Assembly: GCA_002633005.1 (NCBI GenBank)
Contig: NMRA01000262.1
Span: forward strand, 363,735-427,734
DNA length: 64,000 nucleotides
Source of the DNA: Phoronis australis
Lineage: Eukaryota; Animalia; Phoronida
Direction of reading: 5' to 3'
The notes under the pieces were generated by a model. It searched no databases and was not told where the DNA came from. It saw nothing but the letters and a program-made list of their open reading frames with translations. Position numbers and translations under genes: made by a program. Positions 6,300 through 63,870 of this stretch are shown here, in pieces. Each line of letters opens with the position of its first letter. The first letter of the stretch is position 1.

Positions 6300-7336
6300 G
6301 TAAGTTAATTTCAACACCTTCTGCCGTTAGGTGTCAGGTAAAACAACTGAACTTTTGTTGTCAAGTGGAACTACTTGGTCTAAATTGATACAAACTAGGT
6401 TGTTTTTGGGTGGCATTCTCCTTTAAGACTACTTTTATGATGGCCTAAAATCAGAACTTAAAGCCTAACTTCAAGGGAATTTTGTTATTTAATATATATT
6501 GAGTTAACCAGACAGTCCTAGCACAGCCTTAGCAAAATAAGAAAGCGTGAGTTTAATCACTAAAACGTAGGCCCGTCAAATGATTAGTGAAGTTGTCGTT
6601 TCTTGCCATATAGCGTCACCACGAGAACCCAGCACATTAAACAGCAAAAGGCTGATAACAGTTGCATTGAATAGAGGTCTGAATAGAAAACATTGAGTAT
6701 CTGTGTTATTCGCAGCTGTTTAAATTAAAATTAGGCAATTGTTTTGGTGACGTAAAAAGCATTTGCCAATAACCCAAACAGCTTATTACATTTGGCACTT
6801 AAAAGCGATGCTCTTAACATAGTCAGAACCAAGTTTACTGGTGTTACTGTTCAAGATGGGCTTTAATGTCATTCAAAGGATGTAGCTAATTACTACTTGC
6901 AAATTTTAAGACCTTAAAAATAAGCTTATTTGAATTTTCACCTTGAAACTGTAGACAAACTTACCAACTAAGATTTTATCAGTGAGAATCTTTTCCAGTT
7001 GTCTTCTTAGTTGGCTATTACTAAACATCATGCTGGGTAAGATTCTTGCATTAGAGTTCAAGTTTCACCGAATCAGATTTGCGGATTTTTTCACTGCCTA
7101 TGGTTCAATCCTGCATGTTTGAGCCATCAGGATTAGACGCAAATTTTCAAGATTGATAAAATCTAAAACATTTTTGCAAATTCTGACTTTGTGTGTTTGG
7201 CAGAGGCTGTTCAATAGATTCAAGAAACTCTTGAGAAAAACTAAATGTAGCCGTGAAAGGCAGCGGAATGGATTGATTGGTTGCTCTAAGACTTCATATT
7301 GGGAATGGATTGATTGGTTGCACTAAGACTTCATAT

Positions 7337-7616
7337 TGCTTTAATTCATACCCATTTGTAGTTATATGACAAAATCAGGAGATCGGAGCAAAAGTACAAG
7401 GTAGCTTGCTTTAATTCATACCCATTTGTAGTTATATGACAAAATCAGGAGATCAGAGCAAAAGTACAAGGTAGCTTGCTTTAATTCATACCCATTTGTA
7501 GTTATATGACAAAATCAGGAGATCAGAGCAAAAGTACAAGGTAGCTTGCTTTAATTCATACCCATTTGTAGTTATATGACAAAATCAGGAGATCGGAGCA
7601 AAAGTACAAGGTAGCT
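7337..7616 (+). repeat. 4 x 70-bp tandem repeat spanning a PDE intron/exon boundary
   Basis: gttatatgac recurs at 7361, 7431, 7501, 7571; preceded by a 2 x 37-bp duplication at 7265-7338. Confidence 0.95.
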
Positions 7617-15170: not shown

Positions 15171-15292
15171 GCACTTGGAAAAATCAAAGAGTGTATCTTA
15201 GCAACAGACCTGGCCTTATTCTTTGGGAACAGAGCAAAACTTAAGGAACTTGTTGATCAAAAGAAATTTGACCCTACAATACTGAATCACAG
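15171..15292 (+). CDS. PDE10A: PDE10A-like exon (ILATD motif)
   Basis: ALGKIKECILATDLALFFGNRAKLKELVDQKKFDPTILNH(R); tttcAG acceptor, AG|GTAAAA donor; ends in phase 2. Confidence 0.94.
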
Positions 15293-15754
15293 GTAAAAAA
15301 ACAGCTGCAATTTAAAGTGTTAAGACATGCAATTAACCCACTTACTATCGCACTCATCTGATTTAAAGCCCAAGATGTATAAATTGAAAATGTCAAATGT
15401 CAGGATGTAGAGAAATTTCCCTGTTGAAATGAAGTACTCATACAAACTGAAAGCAACTTGCTTATTTTCACACAAAATGACTGAAAACAAGATTTAGTGT
15501 TACTGCCAATTTCATAGCTGATCCCAAGTTATGCCAATGTCCACCAAACTTTGATGAGATATAGTTTGATCAATTTTTTTGAATGGAAACAAGAGACTTA
15601 TCAGAATATTTGGTCTGTAGAATTTGGGACATTGGACATTCAGTACATAATTGTATACAAGTTGCTGACTAAGTTGTCTTTGGGAGGACATTATGTTCAA
15701 GTTGCTGACTTAGTTCTAGTTTTGAATCTGTTCTTTTATCATTTTTGCGTGTAG

Positions 15755-15866
15755 AAGGTTAGTGGAGGCCATATTGATGACTGGATGTGACCTGTGTGCA
15801 AGTACCAAACCCTGGGACATCCAATGCAATACTGTTAGCGTTATATTTGAGGAATTTTACCTCCAG
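15755..15866 (+). CDS. PDE10A: PDE10A-like catalytic exon, mutually exclusive variant A
   Basis: 112 nt, phase 2-0; (R)RLVEAILMTGCDLCASTKPWDIQCNTVSVIFEEFYLQ; gtgtAG acceptor, CAG|GTAGAG donor. Confidence 0.93.
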
Positions 15867-17277
15867 GTAGAGATCAATTGCCATAGATTACTGTCAATGC
15901 ATGAGTCACTGTAGTGAAGAGTAGAGTTGTAGAAACAGTTTTCTACTGCATTGGAGGTGGTTAGTCTCACCTCCATGTACAATAATACCTGCTATAGGTT
16001 GGCAAGGCAATGTATGGGTGTTGTGAGTGGTGTGAGCTGTAGTCTATTTCTCTGAAGCCTGTAGTGATTTCTATTCTGAATATTAGAAGAAAACATGGGT
16101 TTATAGACTCTTTAAATTGCTTTTTTGAATGATTGGTCTATTACATCACTTCATTGTCAAAATAATTACATAATGAGACAGTGAGAGACATTCACTCAAG
16201 CAACTAAGGATGACAAAGAAGGACAATCAGGACAAGAAAAATTGTAATGTATTTTATAGTATTATGATGGTTGTTCTTTTTATTGATATAGTTATTATAA
16301 TGTTGAATTTAGATGGTTTACAATCATGGCACACAACTAAGAGTTAAGAGCAACATTGTACGAAACAAGACAAGGCATGCAATAGTGTCAGTGCAAATAA
16401 TAAATATATTAATAGATAATAAAACTATAAAGGATATTTTCATCGTGTTTGGTAGGTTTATTCCAAAATACACGAATACACAAAACAGTAATAATAAGTA
16501 AATAATTAAAGTAACAAATAAGATAAGGACACACTACAGACACATGGTAATAGGAGCCTATCAAAGAACTTCCCTTCATTGCTCTGTGATGCTTTGTAGT
16601 GTCAAAAAGGTGTGCTCCATTGCACGTTTCAAATGTCTGACACATACCATCATTATTTTTCTTTTGCCATAGTCGATAAAAAACGAATGAAATTTTTGTC
16701 ATCACCGACGATTATTATCACTGAGAAGTAGTTACTTGTGCACACTTTAAAACCAGTAATTTCTTTTTGTCTTCATTGTTTTATACTTTACAGTGACCTC
16801 AACACCATTACTCTGAAACTTGTTTCTTGTTTGTAAATGTTATCTTAGAACTCCATTTCTGTGTATTTCTATTAATGACTCATATTTTACTACCAATTAT
16901 CAGATCAGAAAAGCATCGGCTATGAATGATTGCATTTTGTTGCAAGGTTAGATAATTGTTTGGAATTCAAAACCAACAAAGAACTGGGAAAATGACATTG
17001 CTTTCATGCTTCACAATATTTAAATTTAATTTTTTTTTCAAAATTATTCACCAGGTTCATACGTACACTCGCTATTTTGTTTCATGATTTTCCTTTCTCA
17101 CTCTCAGTTGCTGCCTGTTTTCACAACCTATTTGGCTCACACTTTTCCACTCTACTTTAACTGGTAGAAGCCTTTCCCCGCTCTCCACCTGGCAATCTTG
17201 CTCAGAGTGAAAAGCTACACTTGGAGCAGATCTGCTCCTATTTTTTCAGTGTATGTCAGGGTCTTATACCATTATTG

Positions 17278-19348
17278 CTAGTGCATGCTTTGATCAGTTC
17301 TTTACATCCTGGGTCCAGATCTGTTCATAATTGCTAGTGCATCATGGGCTTAGATGAACTCATTTACAGTACAAGCTAAAAGAAAGCAGACACCATTTCC
17401 ACATCATGGCTATCAATTCCGCCTGCATTTTTTTCCCGCTGAACTCGAACTGGAAATAACACACCACGATGCATAATAACAGCTGTAATCTGTCATCATA
17501 ACTCTAATGACATCATACCGGTCCATTACTTTGAACAACCAAGTACTTATGAGGCAACAACTCAACTACCAAAGTACATAATGGCACACTGCCCAATTAC
17601 AAGATTTTTGCCCAGTGACAATCATAAAAGTTTAACTATACCTTTCAATCACGCAGAGTTTGGGTATTTTCTGTTAGCTGTTAGCGGACTGAGACCAATG
17701 CCTACGTACAGCTGAATTATGAAAAAAAAAATTTTACCGTAATCAGTTTGCAAAATACTTGCATGGGATAAATATTTCTGCACGATTAGAGCAAAATTGT
17801 TCTCATGAACATTCTGATTCTGTCGCGTATTTTGTAAGCAAGACCATGTACCTTAAATGATGAATTTGCGAAGCCTCAAAGTACTGCACAGGGCATCGGA
17901 ATATGTTAAATTGTGCCCTTTAGAAAAAGATAACAATGTTACTAGGTGTTGTAATACCATAACAAATAACAAAAAACAAAACATCAAATACAATCCTTTC
18001 TTCATGTGCTCAAAATTATCTTCATGAGACCAGGGACGGAAAGACATCAAATAATTAATAAAGCAACCGAAAGAATGAACTGTAGACCAATGAAAGCGGA
18101 AGGCGGAGATTTTTGTGGAAATTGTACATAAGAGTGTGGGCCTAAATCAGCGCTCTGGTGTTGTGTCAATATCATGAACAACATGAAATCAGTAGCACAG
18201 TACATGTACATGAATCAGTTTTAATTCGATGTAACTTGAGACAGAAACGCGGACTTTTGCATGTATAAAGTAGCAATGAGTGACCTAATTACAGTGTAAC
18301 TGTCGCTTGCATTGGGATTCATCTTTTAAAGTTAACTTGAGGTTTGTTCACGATTGATTAGATCAGAAATATAGGAACAACTAGCTATTCCACTTGAATT
18401 AAACATGACATGTCTACTCATACATGACATGTCTACTCATACATGACATGTCTACTCATACATGACATGTCTACTCATACATGACATGTGTACACTTATA
18501 CATGACATGTCTATTCATACATGACATGTCTACTCATACAGTTAATTCCGCTAAACATGACATTTCTACTCATACAGTGCAGTTTCGCTAAATTATGTCA
18601 ACTGAAATAGCATGGAATTTTATCTGCTCAGCAGGCCTGACTTGGAATACCTTTGTTTTTTCCGTTTACTTTTGGCTTGAACTGTATTAACTAGTGCATG
18701 CTGGGATCAGATCTGTTCACATTACTAAGAGTGCATATTGTAGATTCATCACGGCTTGGAATTTTCCTCTTTTAAGAGGATTACCTCTTTTTTGATTTCC
18801 ACTTGTTTCCAGTTTCCCCTTTTTTTGTTTTTTTTTTCATTTTGACTTGATTCACTCAAAAATGTTTATTTCAGTTAATTTTTACATCACAAAAATATCT
18901 CCATCGCACTATCCTATTTATTTGTGGAACGATACATCACCTGTCCTCGTTTTTGTCATTGGTCATTCCAAGCCCTGATTCATAATAGCTATAGTGCATG
19001 TTCTTGGGATCATATCTGTCGTGTAGCAGGATCAGATCTTTTCACATATCTGACTAGTGCATGATGGGATCTAGGTTGCATCCTATAGATACAAGGCTGT
19101 AGTCACGTGATAGTGTAATCATGTGCTTCCCTTTTAATGGATGGCAACATTTTGATGGTGAGGAAGTACATGATAACAATTCTCTCACAAGAAACTTAAT
19201 TGGTCTCAGGAACGCAATCCAGATCTGTTCACATAACTAGGGGATGATGAGGTCATATCTGCTCATATAACTAGTGCATGATGAAGTCATATCTGTTCAT
19301 ATAACTAGTGCATGATGAGATCAGACCTCTTCATATAGCTAGTGCATG
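17278..19348 (+). promoter_or_regulatory. cluster of Rbfox-type TGCATG intronic splicing elements in a local ~34-bp repeat
   Basis: TGCATG at 17282, 17760, 18258, 18695, 18995, 19058, 19275, 19309, 19343 (also 15898 and 19505 just after each alternative exon). Seven sit in the context TAGTGCATG, most followed by a GATCAGATCTGTTCA-like tract. Confidence 0.7.
18403..18575. repeat. 19-bp minisatellite
   Basis: unit catgacatgtctactcata, ~7 copies plus a partial copy. Confidence 0.9.
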
Positions 19349-19388
19349 CTTGTCGTTGTTGCTATCGTCGTAACTGTTGTCATTCTAG

Positions 19389-19500
19389 AGAGATGTTGAT
19401 GTACCACAGTATGACTGCTGCTGATCTTTGCTCAATGTATAAACCATGGAACCTCCAGGTCAAGTTAGTTAACATCATTATGGAAGAGTTCTGGCAACAG
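19389..19500 (+). CDS. PDE10A: PDE10A-like catalytic exon, mutually exclusive variant B
   Basis: 112 nt, phase 2-0; (R)EMLMYHSMTAADLCSMYKPWNLQVKLVNIIMEEFWQQ; ttctAG acceptor, CAG|GTAATG donor; aligns to variant A without gaps. Confidence 0.88.
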
Positions 19501-20718
19501 GTAATGCATGTTGTAGCAACACAATATGGTAGTTATATAACCATTAAAGCCATTGGAAATTAATGTTTTTTTCTAAATGTTGTTATGTGTAGCTTATTGT
19601 GAGATAGCCTGTAGCCTGGCTGCTACATGAAGTAGTGACATTTTGTGAGCTTATTACATGCCATCTGTTTATCATGTTGCCTAATGATGGAACATAAAAT
19701 CATTCATTTGAATTTGTTCACAATGTCTTCATGATGACATCCATTTTTATTTTCTGATAACTTTCAACATAAACAAGCAGATTCTCCTGGAACAGTACCC
19801 AAACTTTTGCTTCTTATTTTCTTCCCAGTAAAATCAGGGACTTCAACTTTTGTAGACTGTCAATTTTTAGTATTAAGCTTATGCTGATGAATGTTTTTCA
19901 ATCCCTGAGCGTTTTTGGCGGCATGCCAGCAGTTTTCCCAAATGTTCCTTGCATTAGTCAAGTGAAATAATCTATGTTTGTAAAGATGGCAAAATTTGAC
20001 AAGGTTAAGCTGGTCCATCCTACACAGCGATACTGGAATCTTGCTGTATTTACCCAGGATGTTATAAACATCCGTCGGAACATTTGCTCTCTCCTTTTCG
20101 TGCCATTGGAATTACACTTATTTGTTGTTGTCTGATTCTTTTCAAGTTTTATTCGTAATTCCAATGCTAATAAAGTATTACTGCTGTGTTATAGGCTGCA
20201 TCTCCGATGTGAGAAATTTTAATAAACTGGACAGTCAAATGCCCATGTATACGTGATGTGATATTCTTTGCCTTACTGACATCAATGAGAGACACAAAAA
20301 TGTGCATGATTTCCAAAAAAGAGGTCACAGGCGTTTTTATCTCTGGGACAAATGAGAGTTCTATTGCCCAACTGAGACTAAACCTTACAAATATGAATTC
20401 AAGCACTTTTACAGAAGGTGTTGGAAATGTTCCCCATCGGCATCTAAGCACAATTTAATTCGCACAGCTCTATGGAATACATTAGTCAAGAATGAAATTG
20501 ACAAACTACTGAAAAAACTCTTATAGGCACATTGAGTGCTACATGAAGTTTTGAGCCCCAAGCTCAAGCAGAAAAAATTATTACGAAATGTTTGTGGCCA
20601 AGATGTCTAAGGAGATTCACCTTGTATTCAAACTTTTGTATGTTTTTTCCACAAATATAAGCAGTGCACTATGTTAGTGTGAGTCACAAATACTTATGTT
20701 CACTTACAACCATTTCAG

Positions 20719-20799
20719 GGTGATGAGGAGAAGACACAAGGAATCCAACCTATAGCTATGATGGACAGAGCCAAGGCACACCAGCTTCCTCAGAGCCAG
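20719..20799 (+). CDS. PDE10A: PDE10A-like exon (GD...MMDR, invariant Gln)
   Basis: GDEEKTQGIQPIAMMDRAKAHQLPQSQ; 81 nt, phase 0-0. Confidence 0.95.
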
Positions 20800-21049: not shown

Positions 21050-21183
21050 CATGGGCGGCGCAGCACTGAAAAAAGTGGGGACTATCAGCCCCCCTGTGGT
21101 ACACCGCCCATAGACCATGGGTGCCAGAGCACTGAAAAAAGTGGGACTATAGCCCCCAGCCCCCCTATGGTGCGCCGCCCATG
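21050..21183. mobile_element. tiny CA...TG MITE with 5-bp TSD (hAT5-like)
   Basis: TIR catgggcggcgca / tgcgccgcccatg; cttac on both flanks. Confidence 0.8.
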
Positions 21184-55916: not shown

Positions 55917-58761
55917 TGTTACGTTTTAGAAGAATGGTGGACGATGTTATCAAAAAGTTTATATTGTGGCTGAACCTAAGCACGGCATCATAACGATGAC
56001 ATCACAGAACATATAAGACAATACCACAACACCTTCCCGCCCTACGAAATAATCTATGTTCCCTTCTTTTTCAATCGTTCCGACCTTCGTAAATTATGCG
56101 GCTCATATTCGGTGCCAGTTGATTCGCAGCCACTGCAGGAACTCCATTAGTTGGTCCGAAAATAAAAGCTAAAGGTCTGTGATCAGTAACCAAAATAAAT
56201 CGTTGTTCGTAAAGAAAACGATGACATTTCTTCAGCACAAAAACGATTACAAGAGCCTCACGTTGAATTTGGCTTATTTCCTTTTCGAGTCCGTGAAAGT
56301 TTTTCAAACATCAGCAGTTGGTGGTTCACTTCCATCCGGATAGCGATGAAAAAGAACACCAATCTCAACATTGGAAGCATAGCAAGAAATTTCCAATTGT
56401 TTTGTCGGGTCAAAATGACCAAGAACTGCGTCTATACATAGGATTTCTTTTAAACTTTGCAAAACTGAACACTCTTCAGCATCTCCAAGGCATATCTTTA
56501 CATGTTCGACGGTTGAGAGGGTCAGTTAAAGTAACTAAATTCGGAATGAAATTTCTATAAAACTGTAACGACCCAAGAAAAGAACGTAGAACGTCTGAAG
56601 GAACTGGCATCTTTAAAATATCCTCTACGTCATTTCCCTTTTTAATGCCTTCATAAAACATGTTACCAAGATATCCCTAATTTTTTTGCCAATACGCATC
56701 TCTCCATTGACATTTCATGCCATTATCTTGCAACAGTTGAGTAAACGTCGCAAGTTTCATAGATATTCATCAGAATTGCGACATCTCACTCAAATATCAT
56801 ATCAATATACAACCACGCCATGTAAATCACTAGTCAATTTGTCCATAGTATCCTGGAAATAACCACGAACAAAAAATCCCAAATGGCAACCTCTTTTGTA
56901 GAACTCCACGATGTGTGGATAATGCCAGGCGTCTCTGACTTTCCGGTGTCAATTTAATCTGATTATAGGCATCAGCTAAATTTATCATTGTGAAACAGAA
57001 GCCGCCACTGAGTTTTCGCATTAGATCTTAAAGCACGGCTGACGGTGAGTTTTAAGTTGAGGATTTATTACTGAGTAATGTACACATATTCAAGTTCTGT
57101 TTATTTTGTCCAGAAAGCGATGCTTTTCTTATAAGGACAACAGGTGTTCGTTGAATGGTGTTGGTTCCCGAATTTCACGTTTGATACCACCATCACAAGT
57201 ATGATTCAAGTCACCCAGTAATACAAATGGTACTGCACGATATTTGCAAAATATTGGTTGGACATCGGGCTTGAATTTTAGATCTACTTTGAAATCGTTT
57301 GAACAACCCAGTTCGGATTTGAAAATGTCTGGAAATTCATTGCAGAAGTTGTTGCATGCTTGCTGAAACTGTACATCACTTTTCCTTCCTCATGACAAAC
57401 AGCACCAACTATGTCCCGTTGGTTGTCCTCACGCGAAAAGGGAATCTTACAGAGAGCAGTGACACCAATTCTTAGTTGTCGAACTGCAGTGCGGCCAACA
57501 ACATTTGTTTGCCATTTCGACTGTAACTTTGCATCTGCAACGGCAATTCCCAATCCTTGTAATGGTTTTTCGTAACACCGACTGTGTGATGGAGATAGTA
57601 CTGGTTTTCCTAAGTTAAACCAAACCTTCTTTGAAATGAAATTGTCTGACGATCCAGTGTCTACGCCAAAAACCGGATTCTTGTCACAAATGTATACAAA
57701 AACCTGAATTGGATCCCCGGCGGTCCGAAATTTAAGTATATTTGTATAGGTCTTGCTAAAATACTGCTTACTTTGGCCCCTGCATTTCGTCTTTAACTAA
57801 GACATTCTGCCTCTGTATAACCTTCTTGTGACAGAAACGACATTCAGCCGTTTTAAACCGAAAATCAGAACGGGAACAATTACCTTTCGGAAAATCTGTT
57901 TTTGGATTCCAGCTGCTTTAGTACCTCCTGACCTATTTGATTGTAACGCAGTTGCTTAATTACCTTAAGCACACCTTCCTCTTTTGGTTCGTAAATTGTT
58001 TCTGTTGCAGCTTTAGCCGCATCTCCAATTACAGTTGCTATTTCAATTAAATTTTGCAAATGACAATTTATCGCCATTGTTGATTGAACAAATGGATCGC
58101 GTATTCATCGCTTCCTCTTGCCGGTTGGTTATGGCTGGAAAGATGTTTTTTGCAGCATCTTACCAAATGCATGCAAGCTCCTGGATTGTTTCACCTGGCT
58201 TTCGTTTGGTGTCGGACCCAATCTTGAAGCGTTCCTGTACTGTAGAACTGATTCTCCATGAACTTTGCTATTTCAACTACGGTTAGCTGATTGATATTCT
58301 TGGCTGGCGTTCGTTGTTATGCCAGCGTACCCAGCAACTTCTATGCCGTGGAAGTTTGGTTTGTTAAAAAGACTTGGGGTAATTTTTCGGTTATTATGGG
58401 ATTGGCTTCTGCGAAAGTTCTAAAACGTGACCAGTAATCTTTGCATAACTCTGTGGAACTATCAAAAGGTGAAAATGGTGAAAATGCAAGTGTTTGTGTT
58501 GAAGCTGCTGGCAGTTGGATGAGTCTACTTGTAATCACCTGAGGGAAACTCTAGTTATTTCCCTGTCGTTGGTTGATTTGTTGCTGTAACAACAACATAA
58601 TTCCAGCTAACTCCGTTCTGATCCTGTAAACTACATACACCAAATGTTATGCTTTCGACGAATGGACGATGATGTTATCAAAGAAAGTGTGTGTTTGATT
58701 GAGCCCAAAAACGACATCATAAACGATGACATCACAGAAAGTATAAGAAAATATTAAAACA
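55917..58761 (-). mobile_element. decayed Ty3/Gypsy LTR retrotransposon (Mag-like), integrase region missing
   Basis: Diverged TG..CA LTRs of ~115 bp at 55917-56031 and 58645-58761; polypurine tract at 56032-56043; gag FSPFDSSTELCKDYWSRF; protease VDTGS; RT INLADAYNQI..RLPFGI; RNase H REALVIVF..LVTDHRPL; many stops and frameshifts. Confidence 0.88.
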
Positions 58762-58856
58762 ATTAGACAGAATGCCGTATCGTCGTCATGAAGATTTGAA
58801 TTCTGATCATAATTAATATGACCGATAATAGCTTTTAGGGCGGCAAACTTATTTAC

Positions 58857-58955
58857 AGGAAGGCTCATCCACTTCACTATTTTTTCTGTTAATTCCTCTT
58901 CATTCTTGGTCATCAGGGGAGACTGTAATGGCGATGAATTCGCCATCTTGTCAGC
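58857..58955 (-). CDS. possible alternative 3' exon of the MTBD-like gene
   Basis: catctAG acceptor, phase 0; ADKMANSSPLQSPLMTKNEEELTEKIVKWMSLP; 3' boundary uncertain (the frame also runs on into the LTR). Confidence 0.35.
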
Positions 58956-59407
58956 CTAGATGGCGCAAGTTAACAAACATTGTCCAGTGTTTCCCACGGT
59001 TATACTCTAGTCGAATTGGACCTCACAAGTGTTATTATTGGCTAAATGAGCCACTCCATACTAATCTTTGCTTGCTTTGAAGTTGTCCACGAAATCGCAA
59101 TGGATAAAAACTCGTCATACTGTTATATATGTAGTTGTGTGGATTGTTTATGTTACAGAAGCTTTGTTACATTTCAAGTTTTTTGACTTTCTTATCGAAA
59201 ACGTTTACTTTCGTCATAAAATTATAGAATTTGCACAATGTGGAGGATTATCTACGAAGGTATAAGCTGGCCAATAATTTCCTTACTGGCAATTGCAGGG
59301 GTATAAACGACACATGTGCCGCCGTAATGTAAGGCGCAACGAGTCAAACTACCTTGCGCAGTCGAAAACACGGCTGGGTTCTTTTTAAAATATAGTGTGA
59401 AACATAC

Positions 59408-59614
59408 CCAATGAAACAATGTCCCTGCTCCTCTGCTGATTGTAGAGACCTCTGTTGGTGAGTGGTTGGAGAGAATTTCGCGCACTCTTGCGGCAACTTC
59501 TGGGTGGAGGTGGTGTTTTTCAATTCTCATTAAGCGGTTGAATAACACCTCACCTTCGCTTACGTTCTGGCCGGGACCTGTAGCATTGCACATTTTTTGG
59601 CACTCGCTCCATTT
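59408..59614 (-). CDS. exon of an uncharacterised protein, dynein MTBD-like second half
   Basis: tttcAG acceptor, TGG|GTATGT donor, 207 nt, phase 0-0; KWSECQKMCNATGPGQNVSEGEVLFNRLMRIEKHHLHPEVAARVREILSNHSPTEVSTISRGAGTLFHW. Confidence 0.8.
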
Positions 59615-60521
59615 CTGAAACATAAGAGAAAATCTCAATTGTCGTGGCTGAAAATAAACCTAGAGTATACGTAACGAGTGAGTTGATCAAAATAGAAGGT
59701 TACTTAGAACATTTTGCATAACTTTAAAATCTTTAAATTTTCCGTTTAGTAATGTGGTTCTAAAATATACGATGCAAGATACTTTATGGTTCACTTAAAG
59801 ACACACTGCATGACAACTGTCAGATTTTAGCACTTTTTTATGTGGCACTGTATGGCAAACACGAGAGAGCCAGAAGGTTACACGTCGCTCACTTCGAACT
59901 CAGCCTCAGCACTTGCAATTCAACAAAGTCGTCACGCTAAAGTGTGATAGTTTGCATTGATTGAAGATGCACACAAGTGCTGTTTATGCACACGTATGCA
60001 TAATTAGAACATACGGGTACAATTATACACATTAGATCAGGTGAAACTCCCGAGCTAATCCACTCCTGCACTGCACATTTCTGGAGAAATGTATTGCAAG
60101 GACCTGGTATGTAAATGTTTTAGTAGCAAAACTAACCTTTTCGACATGAATTCGATATAATAATAACTCTGATCTTGTGTTAAGTATTACTGCTCCAAAA
60201 TGGGGTCTAAACTACTGTTATGCCACTTCCCATTATAACTGTTTTGAGTGTGACAGCCTTCGGTAGTTGTTTGATTTATCCATAAGCTTTAGTTCTCGGG
60301 TAACTTTCAAATAAATCTCAGGTATGAATTAGGAATTCTTTCGCAAAAATTTTATATGGAACTTGACGGAAGGTACATATGGCACACTCATAAATATTCG
60401 AGGCCGCTGAACTAATGTAAATCTACTGTGCGGTATCTAATTATAAACGTGTCACGACCTAATTCGAATCAAGGACCTTGCCGGCCTAAATATATTAAAG
60501 CTGCTGCCTTAGACGTCGGAG

Positions 60522-61685
60522 CAAGGAGTGTACATAGAATAGGAGAGTTCACTCTGCCATCTTGCTATTCGGTGCAATGGTTGTCATCGAAAAAATAACG
60601 CTCCAAGCGGCGAATAAGCATCACTAATTTAGCGGCGTACTCCGAACCATGTAAACGCTGATAAATTCATACTTCAATAACGTTCGACGTGCAGTAAAAT
60701 TAATGTGTAATTGAAAATGGGTAAAATGTGTAAACTAACACCCACTCATAATCGAATGAGAATGAAAATGTGTGTTTTAATCAATATTTAAGTGTATTTG
60801 CTTTCATTGTAGTGAAGCTCCCTTCAAAAGCCATCATGGTCTCGTTGAAAAAAGCAAATTAAAGTTCCTTATGACTACATAATTTTAGTGATTGCTCGGG
60901 NAAGGGAGAGTTGTCCCCACTGCAGAAAAGGGGTACAAGGGAGGTTGGCCCCAAATTGGCACGTGTTGACCTCCTCCCATGGGGGTACACGGGAGGAGTG
61001 CTAAACAGATAAAACCACTAAGATACGCCACGTGAGAGTTTAGCCCCTCCCATCTTCACAAATTTTGATTGTTCCCCTGACCACTGGCAACATGTGCTGA
61101 GGTGGTGATAAGGTTTAGCCCTCGTTTTGTGCATGACCCCAAGGACTTTTTCTTGTAATGACTGGTGGCCATTATGCTCCAGTACCATCATGGGCCTTTT
61201 GCAACTTTTCATTACAAAGTGCTCCCAGTTCACTGCTCGTTTCATGTCCACCCAACGATTCTGTCCCAAGAAAGCATGAAAATCCAGCACTACCGCAACA
61301 CTGTATTCCATTTTGATGATCCATCACGTATAATTTTAGTAGACGTACCTTGACAAAGAAGTATCTGCAGAAGGCAGAGCGTAGCCTGTGCATTAGCTTT
61401 TAGTGCAGACGACACCAGCACCGGGAAAGCGATCGACTTCTCTTCCAACCGACATATTATTAAATGACAAATAATCCTTACCTTTCTGGGTCCGTAGGAA
61501 ACGTAAAAATGACAGTTCTGTTGATTTCGTGGGTGAACTGATGCAATTTATCGCACTGACAAATGCGCCATTCCCCATTGTTCTCGCGCTTCCTACTTGA
61601 CCGTTGCTTATTCACCGCTTGGCGGCGCCAGTAGTTGCGATAACAGCAAACTCACAAGTGAACTCCTATTATACTACACTCCACG
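60522..61685 (-). mobile_element. internally deleted THAP/P-element-like transposon, same family as the 48926 element
   Basis: Inverted termini caaggagtgtacatagaataggagagttcac / gtgaactcctattatactacactccacg; THAP exon 1 remnant MGNGAFVSAINC..ELSFLRF/TDPER|gtaagg at 61578-61482. Confidence 0.75.
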
Positions 61686-61771
61686 GTTGGCATGAGCAAT
61701 TTTAGTTCGAGCTATTGCGAAGTAATGGCTCGCTTTAAAACTATCCTTTAACAGCAGACGAGACGACTTAC

Positions 61772-62058
61772 TTCGGTTTTTGCCTCGTCTTCCCCCAGTA
61801 TTAGGAGAGTAGACACCATGACATGGTGGATTGCCGGTGGTGGGTGAGTATACTGTTTTATCTCAGCCAGAGTGGAGCGATCCATTTCCAAGATGCATGA
61901 CTTGTAGTGCTCCGATCGTTCTAGAGTTGCCTTGAGCTTGCTACACTGTTTCAGTTCGATCGTCATGCGTCTCTTCTTAATAGTTTGACTCATGTCTACG
62001 TTGTTCATTGCGTCACTGACAGCTGCTAGGTCGCAACTATCAGACGCCTGGTGCAAGG
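61772..62058 (-). CDS. exon of an uncharacterised protein, dynein MTBD-like first half
   Basis: Phase 1-0, GAA|GTAAGT donor; ALHQASDSCD...ILEMDRSTLAEIKQYTHPPPAIHHVMVSTLLILGEDEAKTE. Confidence 0.82.
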
Positions 62059-63360
62059 CTTGTAAATACATGGGGAGCTGCCATTTAACTTAATAAACTG
62101 AATTAAACATCAAACTTGTGTGGCAATCAGAGTCCCTTGTCCTGGAACGATGTCTGACTATGTTGTAAATAAGTTAACTTTGAAACAAGACTAGAAGATG
62201 GTTAGCATACATTATTGCATTCGTCCCTAAGTACAACAATAAACATGTATACATGTACAGGCAAAGTTCAATACACAATATCGCACTATCTCAAAATATA
62301 CAAACTTTACATCAGGACTATCCATAATAAAGACTCTACTTAACAAACACGCCCTGAAATCCTTTGGCAAGAACGTGGAGTGAAACAGGTAATCAGATCT
62401 TCATAAACTATTCATAATTGTTGGTAGATGGAAATTTAGATCTTTTCTCTTGGCAAAATTCTATGGTCGCAACATTGTCAACAGCCAATTCATATTTGAA
62501 TGGACAAAATGCGATGGCATTTCATAGCCAAAAAGCAATGACATTTCACGAGAAATCTAATTTAGTGAAAGTGGGTATTTAAGAAAGTGTCAGTGGAAAT
62601 TAGTTTCCTAGTGACAATATAACATCTGCACAGCAACACAGGTGGTGTTGCTTAACTTGCTTAAAATCACCAAATTTCATATCGAAAAACAAAAATGACC
62701 CCAACAGTCAACCAGCTGTCAAATTAGAACACCCGCGAACACTGTCTGACGAAATGTAAATTAGCTGATCTCGAATTACGAACACTTATTTGTCGAAACA
62801 CATTACGTCAAATCGGGAACCTAATCCCAAGACTAGTCATCTTTCATTTCGTTTGGTGTGAAAATTCGTCTCGTTTTCCCGTGGTTTATGGTACACAAAG
62901 GAAAGGAGAGACATCGCGTTTGTGTGGTTGTGACATATATTATCGGACCATGCTGTGTGCCTTATATCTTTCCTTCCAGTCACCGGAGAAGCGCGGATAT
63001 AGAACAACTTTGTACAAAAAAATGCTTCTTGAAGGATACGACACACCGGCGCTTGGCAAAGGTCATACGTCACATCCTTGTCCGCGGAGCTATCGTCACG
63101 TCTCTCTCGTTTTGAGACATTAAATTCACGATGGAGTAATGCAGTGCTATCAAGGAAGGGTTATTGATATCGACAATGTAGTCACTTCTCAAAACAAGGT
63201 AAATCGTAGTTTAGGCATTTTATATTAGCACGAGACAAAATTCACACATTTACACCTCTATAGAAGCCTACTATCAGGTCATCGATATAGCACATGGCAC
63301 CCTATCGGCGGCATGATCCTTATGAATACACCTTAGACGTCCACGTCAACATTTACTCAC

Positions 63361-63543
63361 CCTCCATGCTTTTCAGGTAGTCCAATGTCTTTGTGGCTCT
63401 CGTAATCAACTCTGAATTGATTTTCGCTTCTGTATGATCGTCGTTGTGTTCGTTACATTGTGATATCAACAGTTCGATATCGCCTTTGCTTTCCAATTTC
63501 ATTGCGTTTCTAAGCTTCTTCTGCAGACACTTTTTTGAACGTT
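63361..63543 (-). CDS. upstream helical exon of the same uncharacterised gene
   Basis: ctctAG acceptor, G|GTGAGT donor, 183 nt, phase 1-1, open; RSKKCLQKKLRNAMKLESKGDIELLISQCNEHNDDHTEAKINSELITRATKTLDYLKSME; phase matches the next exon. Confidence 0.78.
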
Positions 63544-63870
63544 CTAGAGCAGGGTAAAATTCGATGCATTTGAGTTAACATCAGTGTTATCAGCAAACAT
63601 TGCCTGGTGGTCAACCGTCATGGATTCTTTTCAATGCACACACATCCACAAATTGCATATTCATTGCTATTGTGAGACTTGTTTTGTACTATTAAAATGG
63701 CAAAGGCTTGCTATGCTATATTTTTCGTTTATTTACCACGTTTTTGACAGTTTTGGTCATTTGAAAGCGCATCTCTCTCCAAAATAAACTAGGCTCACCT
63801 TACGATATAACTCTGTCAAACAAACTACATGTAGGCTCAACCACTAGCACAACTAAGAAAAACAATCTAA

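What the first reader, a model, noticed from the sequence alone, without database searches (positions are those of the whole stretch)
15898..19510. Repeat-built Rbfox (UGCAUG) site array positioned to control the exon switch
Seen: ten TGCATG hexamers in the 3.5-kb intron between exons A and B (15898, 17282, 17760, 18258, 18695, 18995, 19058, 19275, 19309, 19343). An eleventh overlaps exon B's donor (GTAATGCATG, 19505). A rough composition-based expectation is under one per 3.5 kb. Seven lie in a local unit resembling ACTAGTGCATGATG(A/G)GATCAGATCTGTTCA(C/T)ATA. The unit is dispersed at 17.3, 18.7 and 19.0 kb and becomes tandem (34-bp period) at 19215-19348, ending about 40 nt before exon B's weak acceptor. 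I did not see this unit elsewhere in the window. Established: Rbfox proteins bind UGCAUG, repress exons from upstream, activate them from downstream, are enriched in neurons and muscle, and control the egl-15 5A/5B mutually exclusive exons in C. elegans. Inference: Rbfox-rich cells would favour A and silence B, and the dose of sites may be tuned by minisatellite copy number.
Basis: partly seen in the sequence, partly recalled or inferred. Interest (0 to 1): 0.8.

Follow-up and report, generated by a model that had tools for sequence, protein, structure and literature searches.

The report
Minisatellite-multiplied Rbfox motifs between swappable exons
In an invertebrate signalling-enzyme gene, an old local DNA repeat has multiplied the sequence recognised by the splicing regulator Rbfox between two alternative copies of an active-site exon; the few copies right next to the exons likely nudge the choice of exon, while the high count looks mostly like a by-product of the repeat.

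Summary
The ten TGCATG hexamers are real (1.4-1.8 expected, not under one), but the whole excess comes from one 34-nt repeat (7 sites); the other 3 are at chance level. The repeat is confined to this intron, lies on the sense strand, is not a common high-copy element, and is an old tandem array partly split by a transposon. It lies between two 112-nt duplicate exons (A, B) of a PDE10/pde-5-like phosphodiesterase; only one at a time keeps the frame. The exon pair is ancient (23 of 28 related loci), but neither the unit nor a site cluster is: other A-B introns hold 0-2 sites. For a role: five sites sit where Rbfox would favour A, the TAGTGCATG block is the best-kept part of the unit (P 0.03-0.13), and rotifer-like loci keep a TGCATG beside paired boxes that would loop out exon B. 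No splice junctions, tissue data or copy-number variation were obtained, so regulation is untested. The scan noted swappable PDE10 exons before in another genome, not this repeat. Verdict: real, lineage-restricted, plausible but unproven splicing element.

The parts
15171..15292 (+). constitutive exon before the pair (122 nt, ends in phase 2)
   Evidence: PF00233 profile 105-134; tblastn; frame test
15755..15866 (+). exon A, 112 nt, catalytic-domain segment (DLCASTKPW...IFEEFY)
   Evidence: PF00233 151-183, E 6.6e-06; A-type segments in homologs
15898..15903 (+). TGCATG 32 nt after exon A's donor, not in the repeat
17205..17365 (+). oldest block of the 34-nt unit, about 4 degenerate periods, one intact TGCATG (17282)
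17760..18263 (+). two lone TGCATG (17760, 18258), chance level
18403..18576 (.). second, unrelated 19-nt minisatellite in the same intron, no TGCATG
18685..18749 (+). unit block left of the insertion (TGCATG 18695; next copy has lost the last G)
18750..18977 (.). 228-nt high-copy element with terminal inverted repeats and a 6-nt flanking direct repeat (MITE-like), inserted into the array
   Evidence: I9; depth, loose ends at 18750/18753 and 18977
18984..19085 (+). unit block right of the insertion (TGCATG 18995, 19058)
19200..19352 (+). youngest tandem block, period 34; TGCATG at -114, -80 and -46 from exon B; one copy has lost the motif
19389..19500 (+). exon B, 112 nt, duplicate of the same segment (DLCSMYKPW...IMEEFW)
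   Evidence: PF00233 149-183, E 1.4e-06; B-type segments in homologs
19505..19510 (+). TGCATG at +5..+10 of exon B's donor
20719..20799 (+). constitutive exon after the pair (starts in phase 0)
   Evidence: PF00233 184-209; frame test

Best explanation
A 34-nt sequence holding TGCATG was amplified as a local tandem repeat in the intron between two ancient duplicate exons of a PDE10-like gene, and the few sites next to the exons likely bias splicing towards exon A in cells rich in Rbfox, while the distant copies are probably passengers. Shown: the sites, the repeat, its confinement to this intron, the insertion that split it, the exon pair and the frame rule (A or B alone is open; both or neither give an early stop). 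Inferred: transcripts with both or neither exon are removed by nonsense-mediated decay, which would enforce exclusivity without the repeat; Rbfox bound at -114/-80/-46 and over exon B's donor would hinder exon B, and at +32 of exon A would help exon A; the array arose by ordinary minisatellite turnover and was at most secondarily kept.
For: Excess vanishes outside the unit (3 vs 1.4, P=0.17). Nine minisatellite arrays in this gene's introns; 0.30 of 18 window arrays would carry the hexamer on a given strand by chance. No unit and 0-2 sites per intron in 10 related loci (7 in 8,406 nt vs 4.8, P=0.20-0.22). Six of ten sites are over 300 nt from an exon. Three of ten unit copies that keep this half have lost the motif. 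For a role of the near sites: positions fit the upstream-represses/downstream-activates rule (PMC2777236 passages); hexamers of the TAGTGCATG block survive in 7-9 of about 14 periods against a median of 4; 4 of 8 distinct rotifer-like sequences keep a TGCATG 70-82 nt after exon B, directly behind a box that pairs near exon A's donor.
Against: The better survival is weak (P 0.03-0.08 for the fixed hexamer, 0.13 for the best of 34 windows; copies are not independent and were partly found by this block) and peaks on AGTGCAT (9 copies), not on TGCATG (7). In three RNA runs bases over the exon B bins (1253, 1380, 336) matched or exceeded those over the exon A bins (1128, 114, 0), which does not suggest strong silencing of B; but counts are a handful of reads, include intron reads and carry no tissue label. 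The array's age and strict sense orientation could equally reflect selection on all copies.
Confidence: 0.5

Rival explanations
1. The whole array is a selected, repeat-built Rbfox silencer of exon B whose strength is tuned by copy number.
For: All 7 unit sites are on the sense strand and only in this intron; DNA depth over the unit bins equals the flanks (43-47.5 vs 47.6); the kept block ends exactly at the last G of TGCATG; more UGCAUG copies act more strongly (PMC2777236); an intronic VNTR with a minimal copy number controls hTERT exon skipping (PMC6562651 passages).
Against: No cluster in related introns; most sites distant; copies decay, lose halves and tolerate an insertion; the one DNA run laid showed the tandem block as assembled, with no length variant listed (it may be the window's own source); exon B is well covered by RNA.
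Confidence: 0.2
2. The repeat is fully neutral: it happens to contain TGCATG, Rbfox plays no part, and exon choice rests on other elements.
For: Chance that some array in the window carries the hexamer is about 0.3, and the motif was picked after the fact; no significant motif excess in related introns (GCATG 16 vs 10.8, P=0.08); L012 and L013 have no TGCATG in the whole A-B intron.
Against: Three perfect sites within 114 nt of an alternative acceptor plus one on its donor would be expected to bind Rbfox (established knowledge); conserved site in rotifer-like loci.
Confidence: 0.22
3. The units act by RNA base pairing, as selector sequences or as a bridge that loops out one exon.
For: Rotifer-like loci use such pairing around exon B (7 of 7, z -2.8 to -6.0); one of six tests of the units gave P=0.02 (exon A, mean energy).
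Against: The other five regions gave P 0.20-0.83; the window's A-side x B-side pairing is at chance (z +0.4); local fold z -1.09.
Confidence: 0.04
4. The unit works as DNA, a cluster of short palindromic transcription-factor sites in an intronic enhancer.
For: The two best-kept blocks are built of short palindromes.
Against: No factor or expression evidence; all copies point one way, as tandem duplication gives.
Confidence: 0.04

Closest known systems
FGFR2 exons IIIb/IIIc regulated by Rbfox2 (PMC2777236, passages)
   Same: UGCAUG sites between two mutually exclusive exons, upstream of and at the second exon; activation of the first and repression of the second is what the geometry here predicts.
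   Different: There the effect is tested and needs ESRP1/2; here the sites come from a minisatellite, are not conserved in related loci and are untested.
C. elegans egl-15 5B/5A (PMC2777236, passages)
   Same: Rbfox-family control of a mutually exclusive pair in an invertebrate.
   Different: One UGCAUG plus a SUP-12 site upstream of the first exon represses that exon; here the sites lie between the exons and are many.
Fibronectin EIIIB repeated UGCAUG enhancer (PMC2777236, passage)
   Same: Many UGCAUG copies in one intron.
   Different: Those are evolutionarily conserved and act on a cassette exon from downstream.
hTERT intron 6 VNTR, 38-nt block 6 repeats (PMC6562651, passages)
   Same: Intronic minisatellite of similar unit length whose copy number affects exon choice.
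   Different: Acts by proposed RNA pairing, not Rbfox motifs; tested by deletion.
SCN9A exon 5a/5b RNA bridge with Rbfox2 (bioRxiv 10.1101/2025.08.16.670673, passages)
   Same: Paired boxes around the second duplicate exon with a TGCATG directly behind the downstream box: the layout of the rotifer-like PDE10 loci.
   Different: The window itself shows no such pairing; the rotifer-like case is untested and shows no compensatory changes in 4 rows.

Membership tests
Rbfox-regulated splicing element | (U)GCAUG on the sense strand near an alternative exon | tested here: met
   A+32, B-114/-80/-46, B+5
Rbfox-regulated splicing element | Excess over chance with independent sites | tested here: not met
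   10 vs 1.4-1.8 overall, but 3 vs 1.4 (P=0.17) outside the repeat
Rbfox-regulated splicing element | Conservation of the sites in orthologous introns | tested here: inconclusive
   No cluster in 10 distant loci (P=0.20-0.22); one site kept in 4 of 8 rotifer-like sequences, after exon B; no close relative available
Rbfox-regulated splicing element | Rbfox binding and Rbfox-dependent change in exon use | not testable with these tools
   Needs CLIP, knock-down or minigene
Mutually exclusive duplicated exons | Two homologous exons of equal length in tandem | tested here: met
   112 nt each, same Pfam positions, 15 of 37 residues identical
Mutually exclusive duplicated exons | Both or neither breaks the reading frame | tested here: met
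Mutually exclusive duplicated exons | Spliced transcripts with one or the other in this species | tested here: inconclusive
   Sense reads over the exon A bins in 2 of 3 runs and the exon B bins in 3 of 3, but no splice joint listed; annotated isoforms of one mussel species carry A or B
Minisatellite / VNTR | Head-to-tail units of 10-60 nt at one locus | tested here: met
Minisatellite / VNTR | Copy number varies between individuals | tested here: inconclusive
   One DNA run, possibly the window's source, no variant listed in the tandem block; RNA depth too low
Dispersed high-copy repeat | Many copies elsewhere in the genome, either orientation | tested here: not met
   None elsewhere in 64 kb; flat depth over unit bins at 90% likeness while the inserted element's bins are about 500-1000 times deeper; short or more diverged copies would be missed and no whole genome was available
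Docking-site/selector or RNA-bridge pairing | Complementary boxes across an exon beyond shuffles | tested here: not met
Known structured RNA (Rfam) | Match at the gathering score | tested here: not met
   One hit of 27.5 bits against a cut-off of 93.5, on the 19-nt repeat

The most novel reading that the evidence does not exclude
An ancient switch between two versions of the PDE10 substrate pocket is run by Rbfox across spiralians, but each lineage delivers the factor differently: rotifers by a paired RNA bridge carrying one UGCAUG, this animal by a minisatellite that was recruited into a many-site silencer whose copy number sets the isoform ratio.
Probability: 0.15. Interest if true: 0.72.

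Novelty: new variant of a known kind. Interest (0 to 1): 0.38.

Why it matters
If the sites work, this is a natural case of a tandem repeat building a splicing-factor site array, with dose open to test, at a switch that changes an enzyme's pocket: the column that holds Tyr in vertebrate-type PDE10A (P0005; its number 693 is recalled, its place in the selectivity pocket is from PMC12982385, passages) is Phe in exon A and Met in exon B. It would also give one of few handles on Rbfox targets in spiralians. If they do not, it is a caution that motif counts inside repeats are not independent evidence. Nine library searches (listings only) showed no paper on this exon pair in invertebrate PDE10 or on a minisatellite-built Rbfox array; the library lacks most subscription journals and no supplements were read.

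Tried and rejected
No whole genome was held, so no genome-wide hexamer or repeat count. Unit as a decayed copy of an exon: best P 0.08 in 8 tests. Unit as a known RNA: no. Unit as selector or bridge: no. Unit in related loci: best profile hit E=4, blastn only simple-sequence matches. The run search listed no RNA holder; the RNA runs came by species label. Splice joints for A and B were not obtained: the joint table was filled by high-copy elements, so exclusivity and the A/B ratio at RNA level stay open. Covariation in the rotifer-like helices: none in 4 rows, so support there is conservation, energy and a changed but still complementary box in L016/L018/L020. GCATGCT looked recurrent in related A-B introns (3 vs 0.8, P=0.03) but was chosen after seeing the data and is not counted. 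The frame test began one base off and was redone. Earlier-finding look-ups by place, by Rbfox words and by sequence gave nothing.

Full report
Gene and exons. The window is animal DNA. Exons at 6.2-21.9 kb on the + strand code the C-terminal part of a PDE10/pde-5-like phosphodiesterase (PF00233; tblastn). A 68-residue exon found 1,532 relatives; among the 120 listed, the highest identities (up to 88%) are mollusc, nemertean and other spiralian proteins named pde-5 or PDE10, so the animal is probably a spiralian (inference). Exon A (15755-15866) and exon B (19389-19500) are 112 nt each, match the same profile positions and share 15 of 37 residues. A or B alone keeps the frame; both or neither give an early stop. 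A-type and B-type segments both occur among the 120 proteins; one mussel species has isoforms with either, and one snail model holds both in a row. Of 28 metagenome loci found with a B-exon alignment, 23 show two such exons in tandem, four show only B within the contig and one is intronless (part of the output was cut). The pair is therefore old. An earlier agent noted swappable PDE10 exons in another genome.

The count. Ten TGCATG lie on the sense strand of the 3,522-nt intron and one on the other strand. Expected: 1.37-1.81 by three methods, about 2.6 at the gene's own sense rate. None of 2,000 shuffles reached ten. But AGTGCA is more over-represented than TGCATG, and hexamers of a second, unrelated 19-nt minisatellite rank beside it: the list reflects repeats. 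With the unit blocks removed, 3 sites remain in 3,041 nt against 1.4 (P=0.17).

The repeat. Four blocks, about 14 periods in 481 nt: 17205-17365, 18685-18749, 18984-19085 and 19200-19352. All copies are on the + strand; nothing outside the intron scores better than E 2.9. Between the second and third block lies a 228-nt element with terminal inverted repeats and a 6-nt flanking direct repeat. In a DNA run its bins have summed depth 26,000-48,000 against 47.6 for unique flanks, with loose ends at its borders, while the unit bins show 43-47.5 (the tool warns that depth is no copy number, and the run may be the window's source). So the inserted element is a common repeat and the unit is not, at 90% likeness; and two of the 'dispersed' clusters are one old array cut by an insertion. 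Minisatellites are ordinary here: nine arrays between 7.2 and 19.4 kb, and 0.30 of 18 window arrays would hold the hexamer on a given strand by chance.

Is the motif favoured within the unit? Hexamers across TAGTGCATG survive in 7, 8, 9, 9 and 7 periods, against a median of 4 over all 34, and survival drops right after the last G. That is what selection on the site would give, but it is weak: P 0.035 (binomial) to 0.08 (simulation) for the fixed hexamer, 0.13 for the best window, copies are related, and the peak is AGTGCAT. Of ten copies that keep this half, two lost the final G and one the core.

Related introns. Ten non-rotifer loci were counted (near-duplicates L002, L003, L005 and intronless L017 left out; three of the ten are partial): 0-2 TGCATG each, 7 in 8,406 nt against 4.8 (P=0.20-0.22); GCATG 16 against 8.7 (rest of loci, P=0.017) or 10.8 (shuffles, P=0.08); after exon B 5 against 2.8-3.1 (P=0.13-0.21). 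No unit-like sequence. All are distant relatives, so this shows that the cluster is not ancestral, not that it is idle. Fourteen loci resemble rotifer proteins; nine were printed, eight distinct. None of their A-B introns printed holds TGCATG, but 4 of 8 have one 70-82 nt after exon B, directly behind a purine-rich box complementary to a box 25-45 nt after exon A's donor; a second pair of boxes is invariant in four. Pairing beats shuffles in 7 of 7 testable (z -2.8 to -6.0), in 1 of 7 other loci (P=0.03), and not in the window (z +0.4). This is the layout reported for SCN9A 5a/5b (bioRxiv 10.1101/2025.08.16.670673, passages) and hints that Rbfox has a hand in this exon pair in at least one lineage; no compensatory pair was seen in the four aligned rows.

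RNA. Three RNA runs of the same species label, about a fifth of each read, give sense-strand reads at low depth. Bases over the exon A bins were 1128, 114, 0 and over the exon B bins 1253, 1380, 336. Both regions are transcribed and B is not generally silent, but these are a few reads, intron reads are mixed in, no splice joint was listed and tissues are unknown.

Mechanism. By the known position rule (PMC2777236, passages) the sites at A+32, B-114/-80/-46 and B+5 all point the same way: exon A in, exon B out where Rbfox is high, as at FGFR2 IIIb/IIIc. The other six are 330-2,100 nt from exon B with no pairing that would bring them close. I therefore read the array as a minisatellite by-product whose near copies likely act (0.5), ahead of a fully neutral repeat (0.22) and a selected, copy-number-tuned silencer (0.2). 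The switch could matter to the enzyme: the column with Tyr in vertebrate-type PDE10A is Phe in A and Met in B (selectivity pocket from PMC12982385; numbering recalled).

Novelty. Repeated UGCAUG elements and splicing-active VNTRs are known kinds. Their union at a duplicated active-site exon was not found in the listings, but it is untested here. Interest 0.38.

Noticed in passing
L014, L016, L018, L019, L020, L022, L028 (introns on both sides of exon B): Rotifer-like PDE10 loci carry conserved complementary boxes that would loop out exon B (7 of 7, z -2.8 to -6.0); in four a TGCATG follows the downstream box, an RNA-bridge layout like SCN9A 5a/5b.
   Followed up: partly
window 7336-7616: A 70-nt tandem repeat (4 copies, 99% alike) duplicates a splice acceptor plus the first 44 nt of a coding exon; only the last copy continues into the rest of the exon, and each unit ends in a possible donor. 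Could give extra short exons or be an assembly artefact.
   Followed up: no
   Followed up: no
proteins P0069, P0072, P0077, P0078, P0093, P0097: Echinoderm and hemichordate homologs also show two types of this segment, so the exon pair may predate spiralians; genomic DNA not seen.
   Followed up: no
L017 1841-2446: Intronless stretch with only a B-like segment (transcript or retrocopy).
   Followed up: no
window 20020-20320 and 21050-21183: Two further high-copy elements in the introns after exon B.
   Followed up: no
window 56074-57389 (-): Broken retroelement-like fragments with RT-RNase H matches (E 7e-11 and 6e-06).
   Followed up: no
window 57883-63574 (-): Several exon-like open frames of a second gene on the - strand; no Pfam match at cut-off in 5 of 5 tested.
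   Followed up: no
window 15753-15757: Exon A has a tandem acceptor three bases apart, which could drop one residue (sequence).
   Followed up: no
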